Source: a virus | IMG/VR virus record: IMGVR_UViG_3300015024_000001 | Span: 67,992-131,991 of that record | Direction: 5' to 3' (one strand) | Length of the DNA: 64,000 bases | In this document: positions 1 through 58,410 of the stretch, piece by piece | Layout: every line of letters begins with the position of its first letter | Position numbering within the stretch: the stretch's first letter is position 1 | Made by a program: the position numbers and the translations under genes | The notes under the pieces: generated by a model | Told to the model about the DNA's origin: nothing | Databases searched by the model: none | Seen by the model: the letters and a program-made list of their open reading frames with translations, nothing else

Positions 1-940
1 TTAGAATTTTACGCACAACTTTATCTGTATAAGTACCTTTAGCTGTCTGATTAATTGTACCAGCACCTATCTTCTCTGTATATTCTGTTACTATTTGTTT
101 AGCTTCATTGTTTCTATCTTCTAATTGCATCTGATATCTGTTTGCTATAGGCACAATACGTTTCTGAGCATACCATCTAAAGAAATCCTTATCTTCCTCT
201 AATACTATAGGTGGTGTATTTGTTAATGCATCTTTTCTATTTTGTAGATAGTTAAGTTTCTCTTCTATGGCTCTTTTGATAAGATAATCTTGTGTGTTTG
301 GTTGTCCTTGAATAGCTATCTGTTGTGTGACTGTATTTTGTGCTTGTTGTTGTTGTGTCCCACCTTTTTGTAATTGTTGGTTGATAAGTTTACCAACAGA
401 CTTCACTGTATTACCTGTTTTTAAGCTCTGAAGCTGTTGAGATAGCCCCGTAAGTGTTTGTGTGGCTTGTGTGTTATCAAGAGTCTGAGCTTGTTGTTGT
501 AATGCTTGTAGAGTCTTTGTGTATTGGTTGAGTGTTTTAGCTTGACGTACTACTTGTTGTGATTGTTGTATATCATTTTGTAATTTGTTGATGTCTCTCT
601 GTAGTTTGTCATTAGGATCTAGAGCAAAATCCACCACGGTTTTTTTGTATGAGAACTGGACATCTTCTAGTGCTTTGTAACCATCATTGATACCTAGTGC
701 ATATGAGTCTTGTACTAATGACAATAAGTTTTGACGCATATACATACGTGGATCAGGTGTGTGTGGTTGACCACCAGAGACTAGCTTTGCCGCGTACTGT
801 TCTATTAGTGTAGTTTCATTAGCTGATACACGGTCAGTGTAGTAAGAAGCTAGTGTATCTATTTGTTGTCTTACAACAGCTTTCTCTTCTACGATCTTGG
901 TGAAGTCAGCAAATGACTGTGTTGTGATGTTTGTAATCAT
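1..940 (-). CDS. Gln-rich protein, 3' part runs off the window; possibly a minor head/head-morphogenesis protein
   Basis: ATG at 940-938 (MITNITTQSFADF...). The frame is open in the 5' part and at the window edge. Same strand as terL. Product is inferred from context only. Confidence 0.45.
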   Translation of the reverse strand, partial: MITNITTQSFADFTKIVEEKAVVRQQIDTLASYYTDRVSANETTLIEQYAAKLVSGGQPHTPDPRMYMRQNLLSLVQDSYALGINDGYKALEDVQFSYKKTVVDFALDPNDKLQRDINKLQNDIQQSQQVVRQAKTLNQYTKTLQALQQQAQTLDNTQATQTLTGLSQQLQSLKTGNTVKSVGKLINQQLQKGGTQQQQAQNTVTQQIAIQGQPNTQDYLIKRAIEEKLNYLQNRKDALTNTPPIVLEEDKDFFRWYAQKRIVPIANRYQMQLEDRNNEAKQIVTEYTEKIGAGTINQTAKGTYTDKVVRKIL

Positions 941-1392
941 TCTCTTATTATAGTTGTTTTCGAGTTATAATTAAAATAAAAGCTTATACACCACCACCAT
1001 ATGGTAAAGAAAGGCTTATAGACATACATTCCCACCCTTTGAAACATAAATCGGCTGATATAGAATCAAAATCATCTAATGTTATACCTTCATCTCAAGA
1101 TCTCAGCATGACTAGATCTAAAACCTCTTTAGTTGTATCTCCACAACAAAATATATGTAGGCAGGTATCAAACCAGATATTTATGATGGTACGAAAGGAT
1201 GGCGTAAGAAAGTACGTTCTCATGGTGGAGACTATACAGTAATAACAAAAGGTAAAAACCAATAACTAGAACTTATCATATAACTCTTTATCTATAAGTA
1301 TTCTGTATGCAGCATGGTGACCATAGAAGAGAAGGTAATGCTATAGTGAATATAGTTGAAAAACAAAACATCTTCGTAAAAAAGAAAATACT

Positions 1393-1704
1393 ATGTCTAA
1401 GAAAGAATTTATTCGTGAAGTCCAGTCTGCTTTAGAAGCTGATTATGGCATTGCTTTATCGCTTGATAAGATTCGCTCTGTTATCAGCGCTTATGCTAAC
1501 ACAGTGAACAATCAGTTGGTGAATGGTCAAGAAGTTCGTATTGATGGTGTTGGTTTGTTAGAGATTAGACAGTTCAAAGCGACTGTTGCTCGTAACCTCA
1601 AGACTGGCTCACCTATGTCTGTACCTGCTACACATAGAGTACGTTTTCGTGCTGTACCTACACTTAAGAAAGCTGTTAAATCTTTACCAGTTGTTGCTGT
1701 ATAA
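1393..1704 (+). CDS. hup: HU/IHF-family histone-like DNA-binding protein
   Basis: MSKKEFI start, EVRIDGVG, ARNLKTG..M.VPA..RVRFRA..TLK match the HU arm signature. Confidence 0.9.
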   Translation: MSKKEFIREVQSALEADYGIALSLDKIRSVISAYANTVNNQLVNGQEVRIDGVGLLEIRQFKATVARNLKTGSPMSVPATHRVRFRAVPTLKKAVKSLPVVAV

Positions 1705-1825
1705 TTTTCTGGTATGCTGAGAACTGAACAACGTTGCTCCACAATGCTACTGCTTTAAAAAGCTAAGGCTCAGTATATCACCTTCATTTGTTGTATAATA
1801 AAGTAAGTAATTAAAAGAGGTTTGT

Positions 1826-2119
1826 ATGTCACTTTCGTTATCCGCTATTCTTGAAGCCGTTGTAAGCCGTGCATTGTCACAAGTAGATCCTTCTACTGTA
1901 ACTAATCTACAAAGTCAAGTCACAGATATTACTGCTAAGTATCAAGCTGATGAAGTTACTTTGTCTGATGTTAGTAATGAATTGAAGACTGCCAAAGAAC
2001 AGCTTAGTGTTCAGTCTGCTCGTTTATCTGAACTTGAGCCTGTAGCTTCTGCTTTGTTAGAGATTGCTGCTAAACTTGGTATCGAAGATTCAGCGCATGT
2101 TGTTGCGCCTATTGTTTAA
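1826..2119 (+). CDS. hypothetical coiled-coil protein
   Basis: GAGG RBS, upstream TGTTGTATAAT promoter, heptad pattern, terminator follows. Confidence 0.7.
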   Translation: MSLSLSAILEAVVSRALSQVDPSTVTNLQSQVTDITAKYQADEVTLSDVSNELKTAKEQLSVQSARLSELEPVASALLEIAAKLGIEDSAHVVAPIV

Positions 2120-2142
2120 TTAATATCTTCGTTTTTGTTGTG

Positions 2143-2193: not shown

Positions 2194-3804
2194 TTATCTA
2201 AATATAGATCGTATATTATTTACTGAGGCTGAACCTAATACATCAATACGTTCTTTCTGCCAATCGTAAGCTAATTGTGATTGTTGTCTTGCTTTCTCTT
2301 CAAAGGTTAAAGGTGTATTAGTTAATTTATCTAATCTCATATAGACAGAAGATGTAGAGTCAAATTGTACACCCCACAATAAAGCATATACTAAAGCATC
2401 TACTTGGTCATCGTGTTTTCCACGTGGGAATGCTGTTATCTCTTGCACGAAATCACCTAACCATTCAGCTTGCATAGGTAGAAACACACGACTTTCGAGG
2501 AATAAAGGTATAGTTGCCCTAACCCTATTCTCTTTAGAGCCACCATATGTACGTGGCAACAGTATCTCAAAATTACCTATCTCTCGTTTTAACATGGAGG
2601 CTATAGGATCGCCATTACCTCCTTCTAATAGGTGTGATACAATATGTGGATAAGCATTGTCGTACTCACGAATCATATTGAGTTGTCGTGGAGTATCAGC
2701 TTTTTCACGCTTGATATCAATAACGTAGAAAGAAGAATCTGACTTACCCATAAGTAAACCTACACTATAGTCATTATTCTCACCTTCTTTAAGAGCAAAG
2801 TCCCAACAAGTGTAGTAAGTGTCTATATGAGGTAGATCTGTATAATATTGAAACCATTCTGTTCTTAGTAAATTACCACCCTCTGTTAATGGATTTTGTT
2901 GATACTGAGTTTCCCATGTTGTCAGTCCCGATTTAGCTCGTAAACTTATTACAACTTCAGGTGGGAATCTGACAGGATCAAGTACATCACCATCTTTCTT
3001 TCTACGGTCATGGAATCCTATAGGGGAGAAGAATGTTTTCTTAGAGTTAAATAACATAGGTAGGTTAAGGTGAAAGACAGATTCTCTTTCATTGTCAAGT
3101 ACATAACCTGATAAATCATTCTCCCCTAATCTTTGTTGTACAATTAAAAATTTACCACTAGACTGATCATCAAATCGAGATGGTAGTACTGTTCTATAGA
3201 AGCTGTTTACTTTTTCAAGCTCTGTTGAAGATGAACCATTAGCATCTGAAGGGTCATCAAGTATCTGAATATCAGCACCATGTCCAGTTACTTTGTTAGA
3301 ACGAGGTGTTGATGCAAAGAACTCACCACCTTCTTCAAGTTTAAACCACTCACCTGTATTCTTTGTTTTACTTAGAGAGAACTTGTAATGTAGAGGGTCT
3401 TCTTGGTTACACCATCTATCTTTATACCAAGGTTCATTCAATAACCCACGTATATTGTCTATGTTCTCCATATACAAACCGCTACTATGTGTTATATGAA
3501 TAACTTGCCATTTAGGGTTCTGTATGAATTGCCAAGCTGTACTACCAACAGTAGCAATAAGAGTTTTAGTATGTCTAGGTGGTATATTGATCACCATATT
3601 AGAAGGTAATGCAGATTTAGCTTTTAGAAATTCCTGTAGATGTTCACATAAGCAACCTAAGTGCCAATTATCACTGATAGGTTTGTTTGACATATACTGC
3701 CAACTAGCTTTAATAAATACATATAGCGATTTCTCCGCAGCTTCATAGATGCGTTCCTGCATGAGAGATTCATAATCTTGTAATGCACGGTCTTTATTAG
3801 CCAT
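2194..3804 (-). CDS. terL: terminase large subunit
   Basis: INIPPRHTKT Walker A, ILDDP Walker B, QYQQNP, WDFA and FPRGKHDDQVDA nuclease motifs. Confidence 0.95.
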   Translation of the reverse strand: MANKDRALQDYESLMQERIYEAAEKSLYVFIKASWQYMSNKPISDNWHLGCLCEHLQEFLKAKSALPSNMVINIPPRHTKTLIATVGSTAWQFIQNPKWQVIHITHSSGLYMENIDNIRGLLNEPWYKDRWCNQEDPLHYKFSLSKTKNTGEWFKLEEGGEFFASTPRSNKVTGHGADIQILDDPSDANGSSSTELEKVNSFYRTVLPSRFDDQSSGKFLIVQQRLGENDLSGYVLDNERESVFHLNLPMLFNSKKTFFSPIGFHDRRKKDGDVLDPVRFPPEVVISLRAKSGLTTWETQYQQNPLTEGGNLLRTEWFQYYTDLPHIDTYYTCWDFALKEGENNDYSVGLLMGKSDSSFYVIDIKREKADTPRQLNMIREYDNAYPHIVSHLLEGGNGDPIASMLKREIGNFEILLPRTYGGSKENRVRATIPLFLESRVFLPMQAEWLGDFVQEITAFPRGKHDDQVDALVYALLWGVQFDSTSSVYMRLDKLTNTPLTFEEKARQQSQLAYDWQKERIDVLGSASVNNIRSIFR

Positions 3805-4599: not shown

Positions 4600-4607
4600 A
4601 TTTTTGT

Positions 4608-6724: not shown

Positions 6725-6808
6725 CTAATACACATAGAAAGAAAGTAACTTTCTTTCTATGTTTTCTTTCTATGTTTTCTTTCTAACTAACCTATCCTGC
6801 AAAAGCCA

Positions 6809-7105
6809 ATGTATAAAGCTAAAATCACAATCGCTGTATCTTTTTCACTTTTCGCACAGTCTAAAAACTATCTAGATGATACTGTACCGTATTACAAGTA
6901 TGAGTCTAATGGCTTAACGACAGTACATGTATTTGGTCAAACTATGCAAGAGATTTTAACTCATTCTGTATTCACATTCACTGGTTTTTCAAACATTCTA
7001 GAAGTGTTTATTACTTTTGAGGGCGAATATGATGAAGATACACAACCTAAACCTAAACACACTATGCAAGGTATAGAAGACAGTTCTAACTCTTGGGACT
7101 TATAA
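6809..7105 (+). CDS. hypothetical protein
   Basis: ORF followed by terminator AACAGCCTAG..CTAGGCTGTT-T run (7128-7160). Confidence 0.65.
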   Translation: MYKAKITIAVSFSLFAQSKNYLDDTVPYYKYESNGLTTVHVFGQTMQEILTHSVFTFTGFSNILEVFITFEGEYDEDTQPKPKHTMQGIEDSSNSWDL

Positions 7106-7231: not shown

Positions 7232-7275
7232 GAACATAGAAAAGAAGTTGTTAGTTTCTCTTCTATGTTAGTGGG

Positions 7276-7632: not shown

Positions 7633-8529
7633 TCGATTTTTGTCCTGTGAAATTATCTAATTATAACGGTTTACAGTCATTAATAGCCAATAACTTAATA
7701 AATCTTAACATAAGCATATCTTACAAAATTCATTAAATTATCGGCTAATTTTCGTGTAAGTTAATAATCTTGCACTACCTCGACATTAGGCAGTAGATTC
7801 TGAATAACTTGAAGAGAACCACAACTAAAAAACTGAATCTGATTGGTATCATCAGTAGCAAGATCGATAAGCAGCTGATTCAAATTTAAAACTACTCTGT
7901 TGTCTGTTAACACAAAAACAACAGAGTCAGATTCAGTGTAATTCTGAAAAAGTGATTAGAATCGAGATAGAACAAGATCCAGCCGATCTGTTACCTAAGC
8001 CTAGACACACTATGCAAGGTATAGATAGATGTGATGATGATGATCTAGACTATTTTGATGATGATGTTGATAACCAGATCGATGTATAAACCTTATATAC
8101 ACGTTAGCTTATCCCTAGCGTGTTTTTTATGTGCCTAACGTCACAAGGCTGCCTATAGCTAACAACACACGTCATACAGCGATCATGGTTAACACACTAT
8201 GATCGTATATGCCATATACGATCATCAGACTGTATTTATTAAGCGCTTAGAACGTAATATATAAGGCTGCCATAGAAAAGAAGTAAAGTGCTATTTTTTA
8301 TTACATTGATATTTTGAATTAACCGATCTAAGCATAAGATGTAAGAAAAGCTAGCAAGGTAGTTTTAGTTTACTAGGTAGTTTTTTATTTTTTATGTAGC
8401 GGGATTTTTTTTAATTTTTTGCTTGCCGCTATGATTACTATTTTTCTGTAACTGTTTTATAGCATTATATTATCAAAAAGCTAGAATATGTTAAGATATA
8501 CATAGATAGAATTAACATAAAATTAGAAC

Positions 8530-11206: not shown

Positions 11207-11286
11207 ACATAATCTACACATAGAAGAGAACTAATAAACTTCTCTTCTACTATTACACAGGACAAAACAAGACAAGGGTAGGACAA

Positions 11287-12408
11287 ATGTTAAAGTTACA
11301 AGAAAAGATAAAACTGCTACCGTTCTCGAAGGTGCAGTGTTGGTTCGCCCAGTCGAAGTTCGTATTATGGGAAACCTATGCAGAAGTCATGTATCAGGCT
11401 TGGCTTGCAGGTCGTAATTTGGTCGTCTACGGTAAAGGTGGTTTCGGTAAGTCAGAAATGACCTACCACTTCCTTGCTCTACTAGCAGACACTATTCCTG
11501 ACTTTAGCAGTGACCTATTAGATTGTGGTGGAGCTGATTCCACGAAGATCTGGGCAGGTATTAAAGGTGCTGAATTGCCTAACTTCATCTACAATGTTGA
11601 ATCTAGCTGGTTGGCAAGCCGCTATGTAGTGTTTGAGGAACTCTTTGACGCGCAACTCTCTGCGTTAGTCGAGATGAAACAAACCTTGACTTCAGGGGAA
11701 TTTCGTACACCACTACAAAGATATGTCTCAAAATATGAGTGGCTTATCTGCCTGACCAACAAAAGCAAAGCAGAAGTTCTTGATAGTGTATCGGAAGAGT
11801 CACGCAACACAGTAGATGCTTTACTCCAGCGTTTTCCACTAGCTTACCAGCTAGAATGGACTTCAGAGCAGTTAAGAGATTCCGCTACTTGGTATGAACT
11901 ATTCGCCAAAACAAAACCACATCTTACAGCAAATGTGCGTGACCTATACGCAGGTGCAATGGCACAAGCACACAAGCAAAAGAAAGCCAACCATGACTAT
12001 ATGAGTCCTCGGTCAGCATTACATCTACTTAGCACAACTGAAGCTTGGGCTGCAAGCACCAACAAACCTCTCACACTCAGCCATTTTATTTCTACGTCTT
12101 GGGCTTATCCTGAGCCTGTAGCAACTTACTTTAAGGATCAAGAGTTTATGTGGCTTGACCCTGAACCAGAACCTGAGCCAGTAGCAGAGGTTTTGGATAT
12201 TGACTCCATGATCGAATGTCTTGCAGAGTTAGGTACTGATGAACTACCGTTGTACAAGATGCAGCAACTTGACTTGCATGTCAAGAAGTTGGTCTATGCT
12301 TACGAAGACAGCGACCCTGCTGCTGTAGCTTGTTTGCAATCAATGTTTGGCAAACGTCTATGTAAATGGCAAATTGTAACAGATACTCAATTTGTGGAGG
12401 CTGCATAA
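11287..12408 (+). CDS. MoxR/RavA-type AAA+ ATPase
   Basis: GKGGFGKS Walker A, VVFEE Walker B, CLTN sensor, ALLQRF arginine finger; adjacent vWA gene. Confidence 0.8.
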   Translation: MLKLQEKIKLLPFSKVQCWFAQSKFVLWETYAEVMYQAWLAGRNLVVYGKGGFGKSEMTYHFLALLADTIPDFSSDLLDCGGADSTKIWAGIKGAELPNFIYNVESSWLASRYVVFEELFDAQLSALVEMKQTLTSGEFRTPLQRYVSKYEWLICLTNKSKAEVLDSVSEESRNTVDALLQRFPLAYQLEWTSEQLRDSATWYELFAKTKPHLTANVRDLYAGAMAQAHKQKKANHDYMSPRSALHLLSTTEAWAASTNKPLTLSHFISTSWAYPEPVATYFKDQEFMWLDPEPEPEPVAEVLDIDSMIECLAELGTDELPLYKMQQLDLHVKKLVYAYEDSDPAAVACLQSMFGKRLCKWQIVTDTQFVEAA

Positions 12409-15119: not shown

Positions 15120-16550
15120 ATGCTATCTACTAATTTTTTCCAAGTTGTCATCGCCCCTAACCGTAACTACGCAACTATTGAAAACATCCCTGATGCTTAT
15201 ATATATCTGCCACATCCATTTTCTGAGTATGAAGTTAAGTTGTTGAAAGACTTTTTTACTAACCACTACCCTTGTTTTACATTACATATTACAGGAGAGT
15301 ATTTTAAAACTGCTAATGCAGAATACCCAGAACCAGCACGACAGTTTGTAGATAGTTGCAAATATAGACTAGAGATGAAATCTATAACCTGCAATAATCC
15401 AAAAGCTCTTGAACAACAAATCATTTCTTGTATGGAGATGGAAATCACTGTAGAAGATGAAATTGCAAACATCTGCATACCACGTTTTTGATCTTTCCCT
15501 ACGGTGCATTACTACAACTGTGCATCGTGAGGAGTGATCAAAGTATATAATCACCCACAACAAATAAATGAACACACAAGAGCTACAGTCTATTATTGGC
15601 GAACACAATAATATCCAACGTTGGAAAGAGAAGTATTTAACTGAGTGTCTTTCTCGCAGTCTAGAGTTTAAACGCTACTATTAAGCTGTAAAACACCAAC
15701 AGCATATAATGGAGTTACTTTCTGATTCTCTGTCAATACCACCACTGACCATAGAAGAGAAAGTGGCTAACGCTTTCTTCTACGTTGACTCTAATGGTAG
15801 ATACGAAATTACTTCTTACGATCTTGATGGGAAATACTTCTTTTTTGTAGATTCTGCAAACAACGATGTAGAGTACAACCTCAACTTCCACGAAATCCCT
15901 GCTGATGCTTATTTCTTAGGAGTTACAAAACTATGATTGACGATAGATTCTCACTTGTTCCACATCCTGATTTTAAAAATTTATTCTTTCTACAGTTCAC
16001 TGTTGTTTTACCACAAGAAAAATATTTTACTACACAGACTGGTAAGATTCAGGATGAGTGTAAACGGCAGTATCCTGCTGAACTGTCAACAATCACACCG
16101 TATAAGTATGTCTAACTTTCTTCTGTCCTTTACTCAAGAACAACGTACTCTTACTATATTTCTACTTGAACTTTCCATTATCTACATTGTTATTTACTAC
16201 GTCAAATCTTTGGACAATATAAAACTATGAAACTCATTAACGGTCATCGCTACATTATAACAGAAACACAGAATACCTTTACTTTTGTTTTGTGCAACAG
16301 GAAGGGTACTCGACTACTTTGGCACTCTTGTAGTAAGAATTGCAAAGATGCGGGAGAAGTTAGCTTTTGGAGGAAGGTTGTGATTCTGTATGAGCAGTTT
16401 GAGATTAAACGTAGCACACTTCTGAACCGTAATCTTAACTCCCTGTTTGCAGAAATAGATACTGTGGAGATCCAAGTGGCAGCTATATACACACAAGCTG
16501 GCAATACTGATTTTTTAACGAAAATTGATCGAGTTGTATTAGCATTGTAA
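15120..16550 (+). CDS. cluster of small hypothetical early genes (15120-15491, 15709-15936, 15933-16115, 16227-16550)
   Basis: Co-directional, partly overlapping ORFs ending at hairpin AAAAGAAGCGCTCT..AGAGCGCTTCTTTT (~16557-16597). Confidence 0.55.
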
Positions 16551-16979: not shown

Positions 16980-17342
16980 ATGCGCTGTTTCCGCTTAACA
17001 CGACACGAAGCTACACCTGAACAAATCAAAGCACTCTGTACTATCTATCATGATCTCACACCAGAGAACATCGTAACTAACAATATAATAATAACAACTA
17101 ATATTAAAGAAGCTGTTACCATGTTTGATGACCTTGTTGGTGATACAGAGTTGGTAGAGGTTGTATTACCAACTAACTTGTTAGAAGCAGTTCTCAAGTT
17201 CTCACAGTGGGCTAAGTTGCCATCATCTTCTCTTCTACGTTCTGTGATGAATCGCACAACAAATACTTCGGGTGAAGTAGAGTTTGTGTTTAGTCACTAT
17301 GAACGGATTTTGAAAGTAGAGATTGTCACTGAAAAACTATAG
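16980..17342 (+). CDS. hypothetical protein
   Basis: 120-aa ORF. Confidence 0.65.
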   Translation: MRCFRLTRHEATPEQIKALCTIYHDLTPENIVTNNIIITTNIKEAVTMFDDLVGDTELVEVVLPTNLLEAVLKFSQWAKLPSSSLLRSVMNRTTNTSGEVEFVFSHYERILKVEIVTEKL

Positions 17343-35075: not shown

Positions 35076-36182
35076 ATGAACAGAAAAGAAGTAGAAACAA
35101 ATACTATATTACTATGTCTAACTGGAAGTAGACTGTATGGTATTGATAACATTGATTCAGATTATGATTATAAAGGTATATGCATACCTCCGCTAAAATA
35201 CTTCTTTGGTAATTTTGGTTTTGAACAATTTGATGATTTTAAAGATGAATTTCAAGCTAAAAACTACATATATTCTGTACTAACAAATACAGATTCACAA
35301 ATATATAACATTAAAAAGTATATTAATTTAGGTTTGCTTAACAATCCTAATATTCTTGAACTTTTATGGGTTGCACCTGAACATTATATCGTAAAGACAC
35401 CATTAGCAGATCGACTAATTGCTCTGAGAGAACTATTTCTTTCTACGAAAGTTTATTATAGCTACAGTGGATATGCTTATTCTCAGATCAAACGTGTAAA
35501 AACACATAGAGGTTGGTTACAAGCTTATCGTGCTGATTCTGCATTTTTTAATATACCACCTAACCCTAAAGACTATGGTTTGGAAGAAAACCCACTACGC
35601 AAAGAACAGTTAAACGCTTTTCTTGAGTTTTTATATATCTTGATTGATGATGCTGCTCAGTACCATGAAATTCGTGATACTATTTTTCCACATATTGACT
35701 TCAAAGGGTTATTAAAACAGTATAAAATTAAACCAGAGTTATTAGATGCTGTACAGTATTATACACGTGGTACAGATGACTTCATGACTTTGTTACATAA
35801 TACACAAAGCTATAGGCAGGCTAAACAAGAGTATGATGCGTTTCATAGCTGGAAAACAAACCGTAATAGTAAACGTGCAGCCTTAGAAGAGAAAGTAGGT
35901 ATGGATTGTAAGCATATAGCTCATGCTTATCGTCTGTTAAAATCAGGTATTGAAATTCTTAATGGTCAAGGTGTAATCCCTGATCGTCGTATAGCTGGTG
36001 ACTCTACTTATATTCGACAAATTCGTAATGGAGAGGTTGAGTATGATGATATTATGCAACAAGTATATACTTTGATGATTGATCTTGAAATAGCAAAAGA
36101 CAATACAAAACTACCATATCAACCAGATCGTAAAACCATAGAAAATGAAATGATTGCAATTATTAAGGAGTATCTATTATGA
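35076..36182 (+). CDS. Pol-beta-family nucleotidyltransferase (YcgL/RlaP-like)
   Basis: GSRLYG...DSDYDYKG, NNPNILELL, GYAYSQ, D.KH..H..RLL. Confidence 0.85.
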   Translation: MNRKEVETNTILLCLTGSRLYGIDNIDSDYDYKGICIPPLKYFFGNFGFEQFDDFKDEFQAKNYIYSVLTNTDSQIYNIKKYINLGLLNNPNILELLWVAPEHYIVKTPLADRLIALRELFLSTKVYYSYSGYAYSQIKRVKTHRGWLQAYRADSAFFNIPPNPKDYGLEENPLRKEQLNAFLEFLYILIDDAAQYHEIRDTIFPHIDFKGLLKQYKIKPELLDAVQYYTRGTDDFMTLLHNTQSYRQAKQEYDAFHSWKTNRNSKRAALEEKVGMDCKHIAHAYRLLKSGIEILNGQGVIPDRRIAGDSTYIRQIRNGEVEYDDIMQQVYTLMIDLEIAKDNTKLPYQPDRKTIENEMIAIIKEYLL

Positions 36183-46309: not shown

Positions 46310-46409
46310 ATTGCAAATAGTAAATAATAATATAGACCTCTTTTTGGAAATTAACTACGAAGAGTCTTCTTATGTGCTAGAATAAACAGGCACTTCACCT
46401 TTCTCTTCT

Positions 46410-47228: not shown

Positions 47229-47910
47229 ACGTTTATATAATATAGGTGATATTGTGACTTATAAAAATAAATCTTATGTTGTCACAGGTTATGAACAGAA
47301 TATTGATATGATAACCTATCAATACGAATTAGTACCTTATAGTGTAAGGTCAGTAAGTTTTCTATTACAAGATGAATTAGAGGATGATGACTAATGGAAA
47401 TCATAGGTGGCATTATAGTAGCGACTTGTTTATGGTTTGCACAATCCAAACCTGTTAAAAAAGTAGAAGTAAAAAAGAAGCCTGACATTACTATAGAAAT
47501 ATATGACCGTAGAAGTAAAGGGCTGGATTCGTGAAGGGAGTTTTGGTGACTCTGATGATATTGTTTGGATAGATGATGGCGACCATCGTAATCGAACACC
47601 TTTAAATTTAATAGAGGCTTTTAATGTTGACAATCCAACAAATACAAGATAAATTACTAGCTTACTACGCACAACCTATTAGTGGGCAAGATAAAGTATA
47701 TGAAGTATTAGGTTTTGCAGAGTGGTCTGATTATCATAACATTTATGAAGAGATATGGACACCACAGTTTAAATCTAGAATCTATATATTACAAAATCCT
47801 TACAGTACACTAGAACAAGCCTTTGTACATGGTGTACAAGTAGGTTGGTTAGACGGTTTTGATTCTGGTTATAATAATGCATTAGAAGATATGAATAATG
47901 GTATAATTGT

Positions 47911-48780
47911 ATGACTTTCTCTATACTTGACTACATAGAAAAACTAGAGACCATAGAAGAGAAGGGTAGTTGGTTCTTGGCTGATTGTCCTGTTTGTCAT
48001 GCACACAAGTTAAAGATCAACTCTTCTACAGGAGCTTATAAGTGTTATGCCAATGATTGTTCTAGCCAGAAAATTAGAGATGCTATTGCCAAATATACAC
48101 CTTATGTAAAAACTAATCTACGGGTTGTACGTAAGGCTCTGAGACGATATTTGGATGCTGAACATCTGTATATACCTGTGAACATTTTGTTGGCTTTAGA
48201 GAGCCATTTTGTACGATGTGATAGAACAGAAGAAGCTGATCGTAAGTATTACGAATATACGCTTTGGCAAAGGTCAGTAAGATTTACTACAAAAGACGGT
48301 AAAAAAATAGTTGCACCTCAGTTTATGAAAGGTATTGACTATATATCAGGTGTAGGTTTCTTACCTTGGCTATTGTTTAATGAGGATTACCTTATAAACT
48401 TTATACCAGAAATTGAACTGATTGCGGATGGTAAATACATAATAATGGCTGAAGGTGAGAAATGTGCAGTATCTGTTACACAACAGAGCTATGAATGTTT
48501 GACACCTGCTGGTTTTTGTTTTACACCCGAATATCTTGACAATGCAGTCAAGAGGTTGTTATTGTACGGTTTACGAGGTGTGTTATACTTCGAGGACAAT
48601 GATACTGCTGGTCGCAAGAAGGCACATATGGTTGCTAATGCTTGCTGGCGTAATGGTTTGCAATGCACAGTTATCAACCCTGCTTTCTGGTTGCCAGATG
48701 CTCCTGATGGGTTTGATATTGCTGATAATGAGTACGAAATTAACGATTTAGTAACAAGTTGGGTAGGACAAAATGGATGA
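47911..48780 (+). CDS. DNA primase (zinc finger plus TOPRIM)
   Basis: CPVC..YKCYANDC, AEGEKC, FEDNDTAG, DIAD. Confidence 0.85.
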   Translation: MTFSILDYIEKLETIEEKGSWFLADCPVCHAHKLKINSSTGAYKCYANDCSSQKIRDAIAKYTPYVKTNLRVVRKALRRYLDAEHLYIPVNILLALESHFVRCDRTEEADRKYYEYTLWQRSVRFTTKDGKKIVAPQFMKGIDYISGVGFLPWLLFNEDYLINFIPEIELIADGKYIIMAEGEKCAVSVTQQSYECLTPAGFCFTPEYLDNAVKRLLLYGLRGVLYFEDNDTAGRKKAHMVANACWRNGLQCTVINPAFWLPDAPDGFDIADNEYEINDLVTSWVGQNG

Positions 48781-50422
48781 AGAGTTTTATTATTCTGTTG
48801 ATAATGAAGCACAAGCTACTGAAGCTGTTATTGACACCAAACCTACATACTCTTTTTTAGATGCTTATACTACTGACCTCGGTAAAGCTCGTGCTAATAT
48901 TGCACAGTATAAGGGGTTACAAAGACGTATTGTTACCGACCAAGTTGTTGTTAAATTATATGAGAATTGGGTAGATAAGTTTGGGTTCTCAGTCAAACAA
49001 ATCAAAGAACATTTAGATTTTGAAGAGTCGCAGATGACAACTTCTTTCAAAACTTCTTATAGTTTCAGAGAATTATTAGAGGCAGGACGTGAAGCTGGTG
49101 AATGGTTAGTTCCATCATTTTTTCAGCCTTCTGCTTTATATACGATATTTTCAGGTGCAAAAGCTGGTAAGTCAACTCTAGTACTTGACCTTAAGTATTC
49201 TATACTCGTTTCTGGTAAATTTCTAGGTATGCCTGTCAGAAAAGGTAAAGTGCTAGATTTCTCTTTAGAGGAAGGTGTTTCTCTGTCTGCTATGAAAATG
49301 GTGGAACGTGGTTTTGATGATGATGATGCATCCTTTCTAAAATATAGTAATGTTTATAGGATTGAGAAGTCTTTTAATCTACTAGAAGATATTGCAAAAT
49401 TAGAAGAGATGATTTATGAGTTTAAGCCAGCTTTAGTTACTTTTGATAGTCTGCGAATGATGCTTGCTGGTACAGGTATTTCTGAAAACAGTGCAGAAAT
49501 GGCTCCCTTGATGTATAGATTACACCAAGTATTTATTAAATCTGAAGGTACAACAGGAATCTGCATACATCATAAATCGAAACAAGGTAAAGATGTAGAT
49601 GGTGCTTCAGGACATTCTTCTATTGCATCTGCTAATGATGGTTTGTTTAAAATAACAAAGATTAGAAATGAGCAAGGGCAAGCAAGAACGGAGCTGCAAA
49701 GCTTTCCTAGAAATGGATTACCACGTACCTTAATCTTAAATATGGCACGTAGTGAAGGTGGTAGATGGTGTATGGAAATTGAATCTGAAAAAGATACAGA
49801 TCCAGTTATCGAAGGATGGTCAAATAAGATTATTCGTGTACTAACATCTAAACCACATCAAAGATACACCAATAAAGAGTTAAGAACAAAACTAGGTATT
49901 AATAAATGTTCAGAGTATGATGATGCACTGATCAAACTACGTGAGATGTGTATCATTGAAGTAGACCGAGTTAATAAGGAGTTCGTTTACTCTATACCAG
50001 AATCTAGTGCTTGGTTTGACGATGATTCTTCAATACTTTGTCATATATCTACTGAATCACGACTTGCTGATACTTTAGTTAAGTGCAAAACAAGACAAGA
50101 TTTACGTATTCTTACGAGAGATTGGTCATTACAACTTAAGCAGAATGTCGTTAAACTACTGTCTGAATTTGAACGTGACTTAGTACGTTTACTATCTAGT
50201 ACTTGTCCTTATATTGTAGGTGAATCTGTTGTATACAATGGGTTAGTTGTTAATATCACAGATACAAAGTTGGAGGAAAAACAAAAAATATTCTTTTTCC
50301 AACTCGCAGATAATGGTGCTGAATGGGTATCAGAAGATAACCTCTCTTTCTATGTTCCTATGGTTACTGAACCTGTGATCGTAGAAGAGAAAATTGATCC
50401 ACAAAGTACTGATTCTTTTTAG
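48773..50422 (+). CDS. RepA/AAA_25-type replicative helicase
   Basis: SGAKAGKST, SLEE, VTFDSL, IHH..K..SG.S. Confidence 0.85.
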   Translation: MDEEFYYSVDNEAQATEAVIDTKPTYSFLDAYTTDLGKARANIAQYKGLQRRIVTDQVVVKLYENWVDKFGFSVKQIKEHLDFEESQMTTSFKTSYSFRELLEAGREAGEWLVPSFFQPSALYTIFSGAKAGKSTLVLDLKYSILVSGKFLGMPVRKGKVLDFSLEEGVSLSAMKMVERGFDDDDASFLKYSNVYRIEKSFNLLEDIAKLEEMIYEFKPALVTFDSLRMMLAGTGISENSAEMAPLMYRLHQVFIKSEGTTGICIHHKSKQGKDVDGASGHSSIASANDGLFKITKIRNEQGQARTELQSFPRNGLPRTLILNMARSEGGRWCMEIESEKDTDPVIEGWSNKIIRVLTSKPHQRYTNKELRTKLGINKCSEYDDALIKLREMCIIEVDRVNKEFVYSIPESSAWFDDDSSILCHISTESRLADTLVKCKTRQDLRILTRDWSLQLKQNVVKLLSEFERDLVRLLSSTCPYIVGESVVYNGLVVNITDTKLEEKQKIFFFQLADNGAEWVSEDNLSFYVPMVTEPVIVEEKIDPQSTDSF

Positions 50423-55474: not shown

Positions 55475-55477
55475 AAT

Positions 55478-55723
55478 ATGAGACAAGGTTTAATTACAGG
55501 TCATAATGTAGATGCTGTAGACCTCAATATTGGTCTACAGGCACTAAATAGATGTGGTTATGATGACCCACATACAGTTATGGTTATCACCTATGCTCTA
55601 CAACGGTGGGCAAAAGGGGAAGAAGATAAAGCGTTAAAAATGGCTATTGACCCTGAGTTTCATGGTATTAATCTGATATCATGGACACGAGTAATAGCTG
55701 CCGCAACTGGAATTAAAAACTAA
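55478..55723 (+). CDS. hypothetical protein
   Basis: 81-aa ORF. Confidence 0.6.
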   Translation: MRQGLITGHNVDAVDLNIGLQALNRCGYDDPHTVMVITYALQRWAKGEEDKALKMAIDPEFHGINLISWTRVIAAATGIKN

Positions 55724-55740
55724 CAACAAACAATAAAATT

Positions 55741-56559
55741 ATGTCCATTGAAATCATTAAGCCTGTTATCGTTAATAATGTCGAATTTTACATTTCCTCT
55801 AATGGTATGCAAAGTGGTATTTCTCAAAGTGGTTTATCACGTTTATGTGGTATTTCTGAAACTGCTATTCGTAATATCATTAATCAACCTCGAAGCAAAA
55901 CACCCTCAAAAGTTCTAGAATCCTTTGTAGGTAATATCTTTCACCTCGAACTTGGCTCTGATCAAGGTGCTAAAATCATCACAACTGAAGCTGCAACTGA
56001 GATTGTGTTTTACTATGCTTTCGACTCCAAGATGGCTAATGATATGGCGAAATTCAGTGCCAGAGAATTTGCAAAACAAGGTATGCATAACTGGATCAAA
56101 CAAGTTACAGGTTTTTCCGCTACAAATAACAACCAAGCATTGACGACAACTTTGAATGAACTTTACCACAACGTAAATATCTTGACACAAGAAATGCGTG
56201 AATGGCGTACAGTAAGACGTGTAGCTGACGCTAGTATGGAAGGTATTAATATTTTGATTGAAGAAATTAATCGAAGTGAAGAACACAAAGAGCCTGTTAT
56301 AAACACACGTACATATACTCTAGTAGAGTGGTTAGAGGAAGAAAAAGGTATTGCAGGTATGTCACATGGTAATAAAACTAAACTTGGACGTGCAACATCT
56401 GAAACATATAAATCTCTGAGACAATACAAACCTAGCAGAACAACTCGTATGGTAAGAAGCCGTAGAACTAATTGCTGGACACCTAATAAAACAAATGGTT
56501 ATACACAAGATGATTTTCCAATTCTTGAAGTAGCTTACAATGAATTTTTGTCAAGATAA
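55741..56559 (+). CDS. putative DNA-binding/antirepressor-like protein
   Basis: EFY....G.SQSGLSRLCGIS HTH-like N-terminus; function is inference. Confidence 0.55.
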   Translation: MSIEIIKPVIVNNVEFYISSNGMQSGISQSGLSRLCGISETAIRNIINQPRSKTPSKVLESFVGNIFHLELGSDQGAKIITTEAATEIVFYYAFDSKMANDMAKFSAREFAKQGMHNWIKQVTGFSATNNNQALTTTLNELYHNVNILTQEMREWRTVRRVADASMEGINILIEEINRSEEHKEPVINTRTYTLVEWLEEEKGIAGMSHGNKTKLGRATSETYKSLRQYKPSRTTRMVRSRRTNCWTPNKTNGYTQDDFPILEVAYNEFLSR

Positions 56560-58410
56560 TGGTGTTTAAATTGAATACAATCAGATATCGTCTAGACTAT
56601 AATACCTTCAGAAGTGCTACCCAGACTGAACATTCCTATACAATCCAATTCTCAGATAATGGTTATGATTGGTATGACCTTGAAGATGAGTTTCCAGAAA
56701 ATGTAGGACAACTTATAATCGAAGCACTAGAGTCTGCTAACTTTATACATTTTGATGACCTCCGACCTAAGTGGACTAACAACTAAATTATGCTATCTTA
56801 CTTACTAGCCTTATCAGTTCAAGTTTTTAACCCTATAGTCACCCAGAAATACTATAATTCTGGCGACTGTTCTTATGTACGTCCAGAATTATGTACACCA
56901 TCTGAGTACGGTGTGTACTGCGATGATGGTACATATCATGAACTTACTCGCTCTAGATACTATAGAACGCGTATAGGTGATAAATGTCCTACGTAGTTGT
57001 GATATAATCTTGACATGTCCCTAATTTACACACATCAAGAAAATAAAAAAGAGTCACCTTTCCTGTGGCTTAGATTTCTACCTAATAATAAGCTAGAAGT
57101 TCTTACAGATAATCTACCAAAAACAGTTGATCTAAAACGTATAGATGCTATAATAAAGCAACTATATCCGACTGCAAGAAATGTCACTAGAGACAAACCT
57201 TCAAAATAGATTATTAAATTTAACACCTAGCTATGAACAACAATTGCATTATGCGACTATTTTTCGTGCGTTACCAGAGCTTGCTCTTAATACAGCATAT
57301 GTGGATGGTTACAATACTGCATCTATATTTTATATCGAGATAATCGAAAAACTAGTCACAAGAATCATAGAATAAAAAACAAATGACTAACTTACTATCA
57401 TCCTATCGAGACATTATAGAGACTTACCTTACAGGTCTTCGTACTCAACTTAATGCAAATTTCACATTCCATATGGATCTAGAAGAAGGATCTGTTACTT
57501 TTAAGAGAAGTATACCTTGCACATCTAAAGATGTGGTTCTAGTTATAAAATATACCTTTGATAAAGAAACATTAGAGTGTGAAAAACCTAGTGCAGAAGT
57601 ATTGAAAATTTGCCTATGGGGTCTAGCAAATACTACTAAAGAGTTTTTATTTCCTTATGATGAATTAACAAAATATGCAGTATAAAATACAAGGATCTGT
57701 CCAACAAATCCAAATCTTAACTGCATATTTTTCTGATTATGAAAACTATAAATATGAAGTCAAGTACAAACACTTGCATATATATACGGGTGATAATGAT
57801 GACTGCACTATAGCTTTTCTTTCTACGGTTAGTTCTATTCTCAAGCAATCTGTTTCTATTGACTATATGACTCAATCACTTATTAAGTTTGTAATTTTAT
57901 GAAGAAAACCTATATAAACCTGCGCTACGATTCAGATGCAATCAAAGAAGAGTTTCTTATCTTATTGCACAGCGATAATCTACGTATTAACTCTTATCAG
58001 CTAGAAGAAGACGGTTATGATCTATATGTTGATAGTAAAGAAGTTTCATACTTTTTAGGAGATCTTGCATGTTATTTTATCACTGTCTTAGAAAGAGAAG
58101 ACAGAGAGTATTACGGTCACGTTGACTCTAGTATTGATGAAATGTTTAGTATCTGTCTATATAAGAAAGAAGATGACAATCCAACTTCGGTAACTGTATG
58201 ACTATAGGTTTTAAAGATAGTAGTAGGCAGATTGTATACAGCCCCGATGCTGATTTTACTAATGGCTCATTATGTATTTATTTACAGCCAACTGCCGATG
58301 AACTAGAAACTTTGCATACCAATGCTAAAGCCAATAGAGATGCTATTTGGGACTACACACCTTACTATAACCGCTATCTTGAAATTGTAATACCAACAAC
58401 AGAGGAATAA
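56559..58410 (+). CDS. cluster of about 8 small hypothetical genes
   Basis: Co-directional ORFs, many with overlapping stop/start codons. Confidence 0.55.

What the first reader, a model, noticed from the sequence alone, without database searches (positions are those of the whole stretch)
257..57828. Genome-wide, frame-independent 12-13 bp motif TTCTYTTCTAYG(G), about 40 copies
Seen: I count about 23 copies of TTCTYTTCTAYG. Plus strand: ~258, 882, 7256, 9546, 17228, 19820, 23873, 27535, 34187, 38394, 39959, 46401, 55259. Minus strand: ~1322, 7235, 8271, 11219, 13807, 15750, 18621, 45403, 47952, 50380. About 15 further variants differ only in the pyrimidine tract (2724rc, 2995, 6733rc, 6750, 6763, 10300, 12877, 14921, 15773, 21958, 25316, 28439, 35436, 52529, 57816). 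A rough composition-only estimate at ~35% GC gives about 0.1 strict copies per 64 kb. Copies fall in intergenic DNA and inside conserved genes in different frames and strands (TVEEK/TIEEK/IVEEK, FSST, SSLLR), so selection acts on the nucleotide sequence. I saw none in the IS elements or introns. Inference: a binding-site code for a phage protein, analogous to mycobacteriophage stoperators or matS/parS-type organising sites, or a self-mark or packaging signal. Candidate readers in the window are the RHH protein, HU, TerS and the 55741 protein.
Basis: partly seen in the sequence, partly recalled or inferred. Interest (0 to 1): 0.88.

Follow-up and report, generated by a model that had tools for sequence, protein, structure and literature searches.

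The report
Strand-specific DNA word lattice in cyanophage
This uncultured cyanophage and its relatives write one 15-letter DNA word about every 2 kb along each strand, even through genes, most likely as start signals for the phage's own DNA-copying enzymes, an arrangement I found described in no paper I could search.

Summary
All 23 strict copies are at the stated places (0.06 expected). A refined matrix finds 59 sites in the window and 121 in the 132-kb genome, consensus a-rich/YYTTYTYTTCTAYGKT.

- **Nucleotide-level selection:** a synonymous-codon shuffle leaves 19 of 102 coding sites.
- **Conservation:** 57 of 69 alignable sites persist at the same place in a relative with about 70% DNA identity.
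- **Specific to the phage:** ten candidate host cyanobacterial genomes show no enrichment, and the mobile genes carry none.
- **Strand-specific reading:** each strand has its own evenly spaced series (about 2.2 kb), independent of the other strand.
- **Variant in distant isolates:** Pseudanabaena phages PA-SR01 and Pam2 lack this word. They carry a similarly built one, a pyrimidine tract ending in CTG rather than CTA. Even spacing is weaker in PA-SR01 and not significant in Pam2.

My best reading (about 40%) is preferred priming sites for the phage's zinc-ribbon/TOPRIM primase. CTA and CTG are both known DnaG start triplets. Nick, Chi-like and binding-site readings remain open. The stoperator and matS/parS analogies fit poorly. 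Earlier notes of this scan report comparable lattices in crAss-like and soil-crust phages.

The parts
258..269 (+). motif site, strict copy
   Evidence: 20.2 bits
882..893 (+). motif site, strict copy
   Evidence: 22.5 bits
1322..1333 (-). motif site, strict copy, intergenic, 60 bp before the HU gene
   Evidence: (25.9 bits)
2724..2735 (-). motif site, variant, inside TerL
   Evidence: 13.5 bits
2995..3006 (+). motif site, variant, inside TerL
   Evidence: 22.7 bits
6733..6744 (-). motif site; left arm of an inverted pair
   Evidence: (15.6 bits)
6750..6761 (+). motif site; right arm of the pair and first unit of a 13-bp tandem run
   Evidence: (19.6 bits)
6763..6774 (+). motif site, second tandem unit, 34 bp before the ATG at 6809
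   Evidence: (17.2 bits)
7235..7246 (-). motif site, strict copy; left arm of an inverted pair between two gene ends
   Evidence: (20.9 bits)
7256..7267 (+). motif site, strict copy; right arm of the inverted pair
   Evidence: (18.4 bits)
8271..8282 (-). motif site, strict copy, intergenic
   Evidence: 18.9 bits
8722..8733 (-). motif site, variant
   Evidence: 24.4 bits
9546..9557 (+). motif site, strict copy
   Evidence: 21.3 bits
10300..10311 (+). motif site, variant, intergenic
   Evidence: 23.1 bits
11219..11230 (-). motif site, strict copy; left arm of an inverted pair
   Evidence: (13.2 bits)
11240..11251 (+). motif site, variant; right arm of the pair, 35 bp before the ATG at 11287
   Evidence: (14.4 bits)
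12085..12096 (+). motif site, variant
   Evidence: 14.4 bits
12562..12573 (-). motif site, variant
   Evidence: 18.1 bits
12877..12888 (+). motif site, variant
   Evidence: 22.8 bits
13807..13818 (-). motif site, strict copy
   Evidence: 13.9 bits
14921..14932 (+). motif site, variant
   Evidence: 19.5 bits
15047..15058 (+). motif site, variant
   Evidence: 18.5 bits
15750..15761 (-). motif site, strict copy; left arm of an inverted pair inside a gene
   Evidence: (25.9 bits)
15773..15784 (+). motif site, variant; right arm of the pair
   Evidence: (16.5 bits)
17228..17239 (+). motif site, strict copy
   Evidence: 24.3 bits
18621..18632 (-). motif site, strict copy
   Evidence: 26.1 bits
19820..19831 (+). 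motif site, strict copy
   Evidence: 21.5 bits
21959..21970 (+). motif site, variant
   Evidence: 15.1 bits
23873..23884 (+). motif site, strict copy
   Evidence: 20.2 bits
24424..24435 (-). motif site, variant
   Evidence: 19.7 bits
25316..25327 (+). motif site, variant
   Evidence: 19.8 bits
26112..26123 (+). motif site, variant
   Evidence: 22.6 bits
26195..26206 (-). motif site, variant
   Evidence: 18.4 bits
27322..27333 (-). motif site, variant
   Evidence: 14.7 bits
27535..27546 (+). motif site, strict copy
   Evidence: 24.6 bits
28439..28450 (+). motif site, variant, intergenic
   Evidence: 21.0 bits
30331..30342 (-). motif site, variant
   Evidence: 16.3 bits
32824..32835 (+). motif site, variant, intergenic
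   Evidence: 16.2 bits
34187..34198 (+). motif site, strict copy
   Evidence: 19.5 bits
   Evidence: 10.7 bits, below my 12-bit threshold
35882..35893 (-). motif site, variant
   Evidence: 20.7 bits
36137..36148 (-). motif site, variant
   Evidence: 17.7 bits
38394..38405 (+). motif site, strict copy
   Evidence: 21.9 bits
38529..38540 (-). motif site, variant
   Evidence: 18.4 bits
39959..39970 (+). motif site, strict copy
   Evidence: 21.9 bits
41263..41274 (-). motif site, variant
   Evidence: 20.0 bits
42623..42634 (+). motif site, variant
   Evidence: 14.5 bits
43673..43684 (-). motif site, variant, intergenic
   Evidence: 16.0 bits
45403..45414 (-). motif site, strict copy, at a gene edge
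   Evidence: 20.0 bits
46401..46412 (+). motif site, strict copy; its ATG is the start codon of the exonuclease gene
   Evidence: (22.5 bits)
47508..47519 (-). motif site, variant
   Evidence: 20.4 bits
47952..47963 (-). motif site, strict copy, best score in the genome, inside the primase gene
   Evidence: 27.5 bits
50343..50354 (+). motif site, variant
   Evidence: 21.1 bits
50380..50391 (-). motif site, strict copy
   Evidence: 19.6 bits
52529..52540 (+). motif site, variant
   Evidence: 23.3 bits
53117..53128 (-). motif site, variant
   Evidence: 18.3 bits
55259..55270 (+). motif site, strict copy
   Evidence: 24.8 bits
57816..57827 (+). motif site, variant
   Evidence: 22.2 bits
60925..60936 (+). 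motif site, variant
   Evidence: 19.4 bits
61286..61297 (-). motif site, variant, intergenic
   Evidence: 17.3 bits
47911..48780 (+). proposed reader (inferred): primase with an N-terminal zinc ribbon and a TOPRIM domain
   Evidence: PHROG DNA primase hit on residues 5-66. Atlas neighbours are Toprim_2/Zn_ribbon_DnaG primases, score 0.97 with 171 shared features. C26, C29, C45, C50, E181-G-E183 and D229/D231 are invariant in 11 homologues.
48773..50422 (+). replicative helicase overlapping the end of the primase gene (partner of the proposed reader)
   Evidence: Pfam AAA_25 at 1.2e-15; PHROG primase/helicase families; 30% identical to the PA-SR01 helicase

Best explanation
The word is a strand-specific signal read on one DNA strand at a time by the phage's own replication machinery. 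Most likely it marks preferred start sites for RNA primers made by the phage's DnaG/T7-gp4-type primase (window 47911-48780), working with the adjacent helicase (48773-50422).

**Proposed mechanism (inferred, not shown).**
- The invariant CTA acts as the initiation triplet, with A as the uncopied 3' base.
- The primer starts opposite the T as pppA-G and runs along the 10-11-nt pyrimidine tract.
- This gives an all-purine primer of about DnaG length (primer length is from recall).
- The YGKT on the 3' side is contacted by the zinc ribbon.

Because this primase would be far more sequence-selective than known ones, the genome has to supply a site about every 2 kb on each strand, including inside genes.

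**Shown:** strand-specific even spacing, nucleotide-level conservation, restriction to the lineage, presence of the primase, and a sister word ending in CTG in PA-SR01 and Pam2.

For: 1. **Each strand has its own regular series.**
   - Per-strand spacing CVs are 0.59 and 0.68 in G000, and 0.66 and 0.58 in G001.
   - Permuting strand labels gives P<0.0002.
   - Orientation alternates: 83 runs against 61.5±5.5, and 113 against 89.2±6.6.
   - The pooled spacing equals the superposition of two independent series (circular-shift null P = 0.71 and 0.42). A site on one strand therefore does not substitute for one on the other.
   - Both short and long same-strand gaps are depleted, also against a null with a 300-bp exclusion zone (P between 0.001 and 0.05).
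2. **Spacing is at Okazaki scale.** Mean same-strand spacing is 2.1 kb in G000 and 1.6 kb in G001. T7 Okazaki fragments and strong T7 priming sites are reported at 1-6 kb (PMC12839067, abstract and section 3.5 read).
3. **Anatomy fits a priming template.**
   - TTCTA is invariant and is preceded by a pyrimidine run at positions 0-9.
   - An A-rich stretch lies upstream and YGKT follows.
   - The footprint against G001 shows 0.92-0.99 identity at positions 1, 2 and 6-10. The Y positions change mostly C to T or T to C. Flanks are at about 0.73.
4. **CTA and CTG are documented DnaG start triplets.** CTA is used by S. aureus and G. stearothermophilus. CTG is used by E. coli, whose primers start pppApG (PMC2532735, passages read). 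PA-SR01 and Pam2 have primases 26-28% identical to this one. They lack this word (3 sites against 5 in the control). They carry a similarly built one: A-rich, then 9-11 pyrimidines ending TTTTCTG, then Y. There are 111 sites (55 plus, 56 minus; control 10) in PA-SR01 and 108 (control 7) in Pam2.
5. **A cognate primase and helicase are encoded**. They are among only 31 proteins shared with PA-SR01 at E<=1e-5. The DNA polymerase is not among them.
6. **The word is not a host word.** Counts equal or fall below the reversed control in ten candidate host cyanobacterial genomes, and for the 9-mer core in four of five.
7. **T7 primase affinity depends on the 3' flank**, probably through the zinc-binding domain (PMC12839067, abstract read).
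Against: - No known DnaG/T7-type primase needs more than 3-5 specified bases plus a flank preference. A requirement of about 15 nt would be unprecedented.
- There is no orientation skew anywhere along the genome: every 10-kb bin is mixed. The classic signature of lagging-strand sites around a fixed origin is therefore absent. The model needs forks that cross every region in both directions, for example recombination-dependent replication. That is not shown.
- Pam2's TerL was placed in a 'T7-like terminal repeats' group (PMC9382816, passage read). That hints at defined ends rather than permuted genomes.
- The per-strand regularity is only moderate in PA-SR01 (P = 0.05 at 12 bits, 0.0006 at 14 bits). 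It is not significant in Pam2 (P = 0.2-0.3).
- The link between primase and word is confounded with phylogeny. Almost every gene is more alike within the clade than between clades.
- The inverted pairs 17-25 bp apart, all minus-then-plus (7 of 7 in G000 and G001, some of them orthologous), are not predicted by the model. They do not occur in PA-SR01 or Pam2.
- No biochemical or read-level data exist for this phage. Only assembled contigs are public.
Confidence: 0.4

Rival explanations
1. A phage-specific Chi-like signal. A strand-tracking helicase-nuclease or recombination enzyme is switched or stopped when it meets the word in the right orientation. Any break or permuted end is then protected, or made recombinogenic, within about 2 kb from either side.
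For: The reading is strand-specific, the two strands are independent, and long gaps are lacking. All of this is what orientation-dependent protection from both directions would select. The phage encodes an exonuclease, a RuvC resolvase and a ligase. Pam2 has an annotated recombination protein and SSB next to its primase.
Against: Known Chi sites are 5-8 nt and are enriched in the host chromosome that owns the nuclease. Neither the 12-mer nor the 9-mer core is enriched in the ten and five cyanobacterial genomes tested. No RecBCD/AddAB-like helicase-nuclease turned up among the proteins I scanned. Many proteins were not scanned. This reading also does not explain the CTA/CTG-plus-pyrimidine-tract anatomy.
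Confidence: 0.15
2. Recognition sites of a phage nicking enzyme. Packaged or replicating DNA carries single-strand interruptions at the word, as in T5, phiKMV-like and tf/LUZ24-like phages.
For: Nick-associated motifs are asymmetric, about 9-19 nt, conserved across related phages and found inside genes (PMC3517423 and PMC11780129, passages read). The phage encodes a DNA ligase and several HNH and GIY-YIG nucleases. Earlier scan notes on crAss-like phages leaned this way.
Against: All described nick motifs sit on one strand only, number 4-14 and are unevenly placed (same papers). Here there are 60 plus and 61 minus sites, evenly spaced. Opposite-strand sites 17-25 bp apart would make fragile double-strand breaks. 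The nucleases seen lie in mobile-element contexts. The idea could not be tested because only contigs are public.
Confidence: 0.12
3. Binding sites on double-stranded DNA for an abundant phage protein. Candidates are a dispersed operator or stoperator-like repressor, a nucleoid-organising or co-packaged protein, or a self tag for the packaging machinery.
For: The word is asymmetric, about 15 bp and carries about 18 bits, as for a monomeric DNA binder. Intergenic DNA is mildly enriched: 17-19 sites where about 11 are expected from a 9.3% non-coding share. There are inverted pairs and a tandem triple in the intergenic region at 6.7-7.3 kb. HU and an HTH protein are encoded. The overall statistics resemble bacterial uptake sequences (PMC1939737, passages read).
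Against: An orientation-blind reader should give pooled regularity with compensation between strands. Instead the strands are independently regular and the pooled spacing is just their superposition. About 84% of sites lie within genes, with no relation to transcription direction, unlike stoperators. The types of the HTH protein at 55741 do not follow the word. PA-SR01 has no detectable HU homologue at E<=1e-5 yet has a word.
Confidence: 0.15
4. Promoters or other transcription signals for a phage factor. The Pam2 homologue of the 55741 protein is labelled 'RNA polymerase sigma factor' by its depositors.
For: Signals of this kind are strand-specific. Two sites lie 34-35 bp before a start codon (6763 before 6809, 11240 before 11287). 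The depositor's label appears.
Against: There are 52 sense and 49 antisense sites inside genes, spread evenly along gene length. The pair at 7235/7256 lies between two gene ends. Pfam finds only a weak HTH and no sigma domains in three homologues, even at E<=5.
Confidence: 0.03
5. A by-product of a molecular drive, with no function of its own. Biased repair, recombination or packaging favours DNA that carries the word, as proposed for bacterial uptake sequences.
For: The drive model explains accumulation of uptake sequences in weakly constrained parts of genes (PMC1939737, passages read). The frame bias towards tolerated peptides such as xT[IV]E[EK]K and FSST fits that model.
Against: A drive still needs a reader with this specificity. 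It does not predict independent even spacing on each strand. It also does not predict 57 of 69 sites kept in place at about 70% DNA identity.
Confidence: 0.05

Closest known systems
Initiation sites of DnaG/T7-gp4-type primases (T7 5'-(G/T)2GTC-3' plus 3' flank; E. coli CTG; S. aureus and G. stearothermophilus CTA/TTA)
   Same: They are read on a single strand. They contain a start triplet with an uncopied 3' base, and CTA and CTG are both documented triplets (PMC2532735, passages). The 3' flank contributes to affinity, and strong sites lie 1-6 kb apart in T7 (PMC12839067, abstract and section 3.5). A zinc-ribbon/TOPRIM primase is encoded here.
   Different: Known sites specify 3-5 bases and need no imprint on the genome. 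Here about 15 positions are constrained, including the whole templated tract. The sites are kept at fixed places inside genes and form a regular lattice on both strands. Priming at these sites has not been shown.
DNA uptake sequences of Pasteurellaceae and Neisseriaceae (USS/DUS)
   Same: They are asymmetric words of about 10-30 nt at about 1 per kb. Both orientations are equally common, most copies lie inside genes, about 10% occur as inverted pairs, non-coding DNA is mildly enriched, and even spacing has been reported (PMC1939737, passages quoting Karlin et al.).
   Different: They belong to competent bacteria and are read outside the cell by the uptake machinery, with orientation irrelevant to uptake. 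The word here is in a phage, is absent from the candidate hosts tested, and is spaced per strand.
Nick-associated motifs of phages T5, phiKMV-like phages, tf/LUZ24-like phages and Rembedalsseter (TACTRTGMC/WACTRTGAC)
   Same: They are asymmetric, lineage-conserved phage words found inside and outside genes, and their function is unknown (PMC3517423 and PMC11780129, passages).
   Different: They number 4-14, sit on one strand only and are clustered. Here there are 121-177 sites on both strands, evenly spaced. Nicks have not been tested here.
Stoperators of cluster A mycobacteriophages and the dispersed C1 operators of phage P1 (both from recall, no call)
   Same: Asymmetric 13-17-bp sites are scattered over a phage genome and are read by one phage protein.
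   Different: They number tens, are largely intergenic and, for stoperators, are oriented with transcription. They belong to temperate phages with a repressor. None of these features holds here.
Chi sites of RecBCD/AddAB
   Same: They are orientation-dependent, read on a single strand, and dense and widely spread in the genome they protect.
   Different: They are 5-8 nt and enriched in the host chromosome. The word here is about 15 nt and is not enriched in ten candidate host genomes.

Membership tests
Primase initiation sites (DnaG/T7 gp4 type) | Contains an initiation triplet with a pyrimidine templating the first purine and an uncopied 3' base | tested here: met
   CTA is invariant in 121 G000 sites and 177 G001 sites. 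CTG is invariant in 111 PA-SR01 sites, although the seed used there contained CTG. Both triplets are documented for DnaG (PMC2532735, passages).
Primase initiation sites (DnaG/T7 gp4 type) | Read strand-specifically on single-stranded template | tested here: inconclusive
   Strand specificity is supported by independent per-strand regularity. Single-strand reading itself cannot be shown from sequence.
Primase initiation sites (DnaG/T7 gp4 type) | A cognate primase is encoded | tested here: met
   Zinc ribbon plus TOPRIM protein at window 47911-48780, next to the helicase.
Primase initiation sites (DnaG/T7 gp4 type) | Sites lie on the lagging-strand template, giving an orientation switch at a fixed origin | tested here: not met
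   Every 10-kb bin carries both orientations in G000 and G001. The model survives only if forks run both ways everywhere.
Primase initiation sites (DnaG/T7 gp4 type) | RNA primers start at the site | not testable with these tools
   This needs a primase assay or mapping of RNA-DNA junctions.
Phage nick-associated motifs | A physical single-strand interruption at the motif | not testable with these tools
   Only Logan contigs are public for this phage.
Phage nick-associated motifs | All sites on one strand, few in number | tested here: not met
   60 plus and 61 minus sites in G000; 83 plus and 94 minus in G001.
Stoperators / dispersed repressor operators | Mostly intergenic and oriented with transcription | tested here: not met
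   101 of 121 sites lie inside genes, 52 sense and 49 antisense.
Stoperators / dispersed repressor operators | A repressor and lysogeny module is present | not tested
   No integrase or repressor appeared among the proteins scanned, but many proteins were not scanned.
Chi sites | Over-represented in the chromosome of the organism whose nuclease reads them | tested here: not met
   The 12-mers occur 1-8 times per 2.8-8.5 Mb, at or below the reversed control, in ten cyanobacterial genomes. The 9-mer core is at or below the control in four of five. The true host is not known.
matS/parS/NBS-type organising sites | Palindromic site bound by a dimer | tested here: not met
   The word is asymmetric. 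In G000 only four inverted pairs 17-25 bp apart exist, involving 8 of 121 sites.
DNA uptake sequences (USS/DUS) | Genome statistics: about 1 per kb, both orientations, mostly in genes, evenly spaced | tested here: met
   compared with PMC1939737 passages.
DNA uptake sequences (USS/DUS) | Read by the DNA-uptake machinery of a competent bacterium, independent of orientation | tested here: not met
   The carrier is a phage, the candidate hosts lack the word, and the spacing is per strand.

The most novel reading that the evidence does not exclude
A family of large Pseudanabaena-type cyanophages uses a primase so sequence-selective that the genome must carry hard-wired primer templates. Each template is a 10-11-nt pyrimidine tract ending in CTA or CTG plus a short 3' flank, placed about every 2 kb on each strand and through genes. 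Primase and word would then co-evolve as a lineage-specific pair that confines priming to the phage's own DNA. This would be a replication-level form of self-recognition. The evenly spaced strand words noted earlier in crAss-like and soil-crust phages may be the same phenomenon.
Probability: 0.3. Interest if true: 0.9.

Novelty: new variant of a known kind. Interest (0 to 1): 0.8.

Why it matters
If the word marks priming sites, it shows that lagging-strand initiation in some phages is not opportunistic. It would be laid out in the genome, constraining codon choice and protein sequence at more than 100 places. It would also give these phages a private replication code that host DNA lacks.

Whatever reads it, the lattice is a strong, conserved signal that gene-centred annotation misses. 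It occurs in two cultured phages, PA-SR01 and Pam2, so it can be tested directly at the bench. Comparable lattices noted by this scan in crAss-like phages suggest a widespread, undescribed step in how phages handle their DNA.

There are practical consequences as well.
- Recoding or synthesising such genomes without the sites may fail.
- The word is a sensitive marker for recognising members of the clade in metagenomes.

Tried and rejected
- **Close relatives in the GenBank phage collection.** None by DNA. TerL and RNR give only distant hits.
- **IMG/VR searches.** Scans with TerL, the TerL alignment and the primase alignment found only one relative, G001. The inverted-pair pattern found G001 and one unrelated contig, L098. 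Of 116 loci scanned, only those from G001 were dense. Four other contigs checked had 1-3 copies.
- **Cyanobacterial genomes.** A primase-profile search of 401 genomes found only about 1000-aa host proteins with a related N-terminal domain, in 24 genomes, and no members of the phage clade.
- **Position in deep homologues.** In 26 protein pairs shared by G000 and PA-SR01 (6,152 aligned residues), 0 of 15 G000 sites coincide within 3 residues with any of 5 PA-SR01 sites. The chance expectation is 0.09, so the test has no power.
- **More distant relatives.** Contigs L218 and L219 (TerL 42-44%) lack the word. They may carry another word containing TCTTAAG, but they are too short to judge.
- **Candidate proteins.** PDB sequence searches for the primase and the 55741 protein gave nothing useful. 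PHROG and Pfam scans left most large proteins unnamed.
- **Sequencing runs.** The seven runs listed are glacier metagenomes kept as contigs, and no RNA holder is listed. I did not use read laying because contigs cannot show molecule ends or nicks.
- **Rejected ideas.** A codon or peptide artefact. A terminator function: the real terminators nearby are GC-rich hairpins, and most sites are single. A host-shared word.
- **Literature.** Searches, and term look-ups in the PA-SR01, Pam and Pan papers, found no description of these words.

Full report
**What the window is.** The window is the right-hand 64 kb of a single 131,991-bp virus record with 35% G+C. It has no near relative in the GenBank phage collection. 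Public runs that hold it are glacier metagenomes kept as contigs. An IS605-type TnpB in the window is 92% identical to copies in Pseudanabaena cinerea and a Pseudanabaenaceae MAG. The only GenBank phages with a related primase are Pseudanabaena phages PA-SR01 and Pam2. A filamentous cyanobacterium of that kind is therefore the likely host. This is an inference.

**The observation.** The strict word TTCTYTTCTAYG occurs 23 times in the window, at exactly the coordinates given, against 0.06 in shuffles. It occurs 39 times in the genome. An unbiased k-mer scan shows that essentially all the most enriched 8- to 12-mers are pieces of this word, for example TTCTACGGT at 24 copies against 1.3 expected.

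Refining a position matrix converges on 121 sites of at least 12 bits (59 in the window). The consensus is A-rich, then YYTTYTYTTCTAYGKT, with TTCTA invariant and G12 nearly so. The genome read backwards gives 4 sites. Flanks are unrelated, so this is a short word and not a mobile repeat.

**Selection on the nucleotides.**
- With synonymous codons shuffled within genes, 19.4 coding sites remain. With codon order shuffled, 3.3 remain. The observed number is 102.
- Sites use all five stop-free frame and strand combinations, with a preference for xT[IV]E[EK]K (40 sites) and FxS[TM] (29 sites).
- The shuffles predict about 1.5-1.8 antisense sites per sense site. The genome has 50 antisense and 52 sense.
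- Five mobile segments in the window (two TnpB units, an HNH shell, a GIY-YIG gene and the homing endonuclease that splits polA) hold 0 sites in 5,627 bp, where 5.2 are expected.

**Relatives.**
- An IMG/VR genome, G001, is 138.7 kb. Its TerL is 50% identical to this phage's, it is syntenic, and aligned blocks are about 65-75% identical at the DNA level. It has 52 strict copies (control 0) and 177 matrix sites with the same logo.
- Five metagenome contigs with TerL 50-86% identical carry 1.2-1.5 sites per kb. Ten contigs with TerL at or below 44% carry 0-1 sites.
- Of 69 G000 sites that fall in blocks alignable to G001, 57 have a site at the same place and in the same orientation.
- The 12-mers are 89% identical, against 73% for random aligned 12-mers.
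- The per-position footprint shows 0.92-0.99 identity at positions 1, 2 and 6-10. Changes at the Y positions are mostly C to T or T to C. Flanks show ordinary codon-periodic divergence.

**Not a host word.** In ten cyanobacterial genomes chosen through the TnpB hits, the 12-mers occur 1-8 times per 2.8-8.5 Mb, no more often than the reversed control. The 9-mer core is at or below the control in four of five genomes and mildly above it in one (62 against 42). The phage has 45 copies in 0.13 Mb.

**The key structural result.** The sites are split 60 plus and 61 minus, and every 10-kb bin is mixed.
- Each strand taken alone is much more evenly served than chance. The CVs are 0.59 and 0.68 in G000 and 0.66 and 0.58 in G001. 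Permuting strand labels gives P<0.0002.
- Orientation alternates: 83 runs against 61.5±5.5, and 113 against 89.2±6.6. This holds at thresholds from 10 to 18 bits.
- Sliding one strand's sites relative to the other's reproduces the pooled spacing (P = 0.71 and 0.42). The two series are therefore independent, and a site on one strand does not replace a site on the other.
- Same-strand gaps lack both short and long values. They cluster around 0.5-1.5 times the mean of 2.1 kb (1.6 kb in G001). This holds even against a null that forbids gaps under 300 bp.

An orientation-blind reader of double-stranded DNA would not produce this pattern. G000 and G001 share many sites, so they are not independent replicates.

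**A sister word in cultured phages.** PA-SR01 (137 kb) and Pam2 (143 kb) share only 31 proteins with this phage at E<=1e-5. These include the primase (28%) and helicase (30%) but not the DNA polymerase.
- Both lack the G000 word (3 sites against 5 in the control).
- Their top enriched k-mers form a differently spelled word of similar build: A-rich, then 9-11 pyrimidines ending TTTTCTG, then Y.
- PA-SR01 has 111 sites (55 plus, 56 minus; control 10). Pam2 has 108 (56 plus, 52 minus; control 7). Sites lie in genes in both orientations.
- Per-strand regularity is moderate in PA-SR01 (P = 0.05 at 12 bits, 0.0006 at 14 bits). It is not significant in Pam2 (P = 0.2-0.3).
- The papers describing these phages do not mention such a word, by term look-up.

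**Reading.** The common architecture is a pyrimidine tract, then CT, then a purine, then a pyrimidine.
- CTA and CTG are the documented start triplets of Firmicute and E. coli DnaG primases, with primers starting pppAG (PMC2532735, passages).
- T7 primase affinity depends on the 3' flank, and its strong sites lie 1-6 kb apart (PMC12839067, abstract and section 3.5).
- The phage encodes a zinc-ribbon/TOPRIM primase overlapping a helicase gene.

I therefore read the word as a hard-wired primer template. That bacterial primers are about 10-12 nt long is from recall. This is an inference with roughly 40% confidence.

The main difficulties are these.
- Such a long requirement is unprecedented for a primase.
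- There is no orientation skew along the genome.
- The regularity is weaker in the sister lineage.
- The link between primase and word is confounded with phylogeny.

**Rivals.** Readings as a Chi-like signal, as nick sites and as double-strand binding sites remain open.
- Described nick motifs are few, on one strand and clustered (PMC3517423 and PMC11780129, passages).
- Chi sites are short and shared with the host.
- Stoperators are intergenic and oriented with transcription (from recall).
- Uptake sequences of competent bacteria are the nearest statistical look-alike (PMC1939737, passages).
It comes in two types that do not follow the word.

**Context within the scan.** Earlier notes report evenly spaced, strand-specific words in several crAss-like phages and in a soil-crust phage. 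One of those words has the core TTCTACGGGGGAG, which shares eight letters with this one. I did not test those notes. They are leads, not support.

Noticed in passing
window 55741-56559: A 272-aa protein with a weak N-terminal HTH is 49% identical to its PA-SR01 and Pam2 homologues, far more than TerL (25%) or the primase (28%). It is only 47-48% identical to the G001 homologue. Two sequence types appear to move between lineages. The Pam2 copy is labelled 'RNA polymerase sigma factor' by its depositors, but Pfam finds no sigma domains.
   Followed up: partly
window 6809-7105 and about 7800-8090: Two small acidic ORFs share a C-terminal stretch (PKP[KR]HTMQGI[ED]). Each is followed by a GC-rich hairpin and a T run. 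They look like paralogous early genes in the intergenic-rich region that also holds six motif sites.
   Followed up: no
window 6733-6790: A perfect 13-bp inverted pair of the word is followed by a 13-bp tandem repeat of its 3' half (three units). It lies directly after the stop codon at 6722-6724 and 34 bp before the next ATG.
   Followed up: partly
L218 (5.6 kb) and L219 (3.6 kb): Metagenome contigs with TerL 42-44% identical lack the word. They show TTCTTAAG seven times in 5.6 kb, with several copies as TCTTAAGTT. This may be another spelling of the signal, but the contigs are too short to test.
   Followed up: partly
window 51527-55474, compared with PA-SR01: The split family-A DNA polymerase has no homologue in PA-SR01 at E<=1e-5, while the primase and helicase do. 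The replication modules of the two lineages are mosaic.
   Followed up: no
G101, G065, G195 and 21 other cyanobacterial genomes (loci L233-L242): In 24 of 401 sampled cyanobacterial genomes, open frames of mostly 640-1,370 aa begin with a zinc-ribbon/TOPRIM domain related to the phage primase. These may be primase-helicases of plasmids or integrated elements.
   Followed up: no
Pam2 record ON014754.1 (loci L246-L248): Several structural genes carry implausible depositor product names, such as neurotoxin types, neurexin and an actin-interacting protein. These look like spurious name transfers. I did not examine them.
   Followed up: no
window 46401-46412: The ATG inside one strict copy of the word is the start codon of the exonuclease gene (46410-47228).
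   Followed up: no
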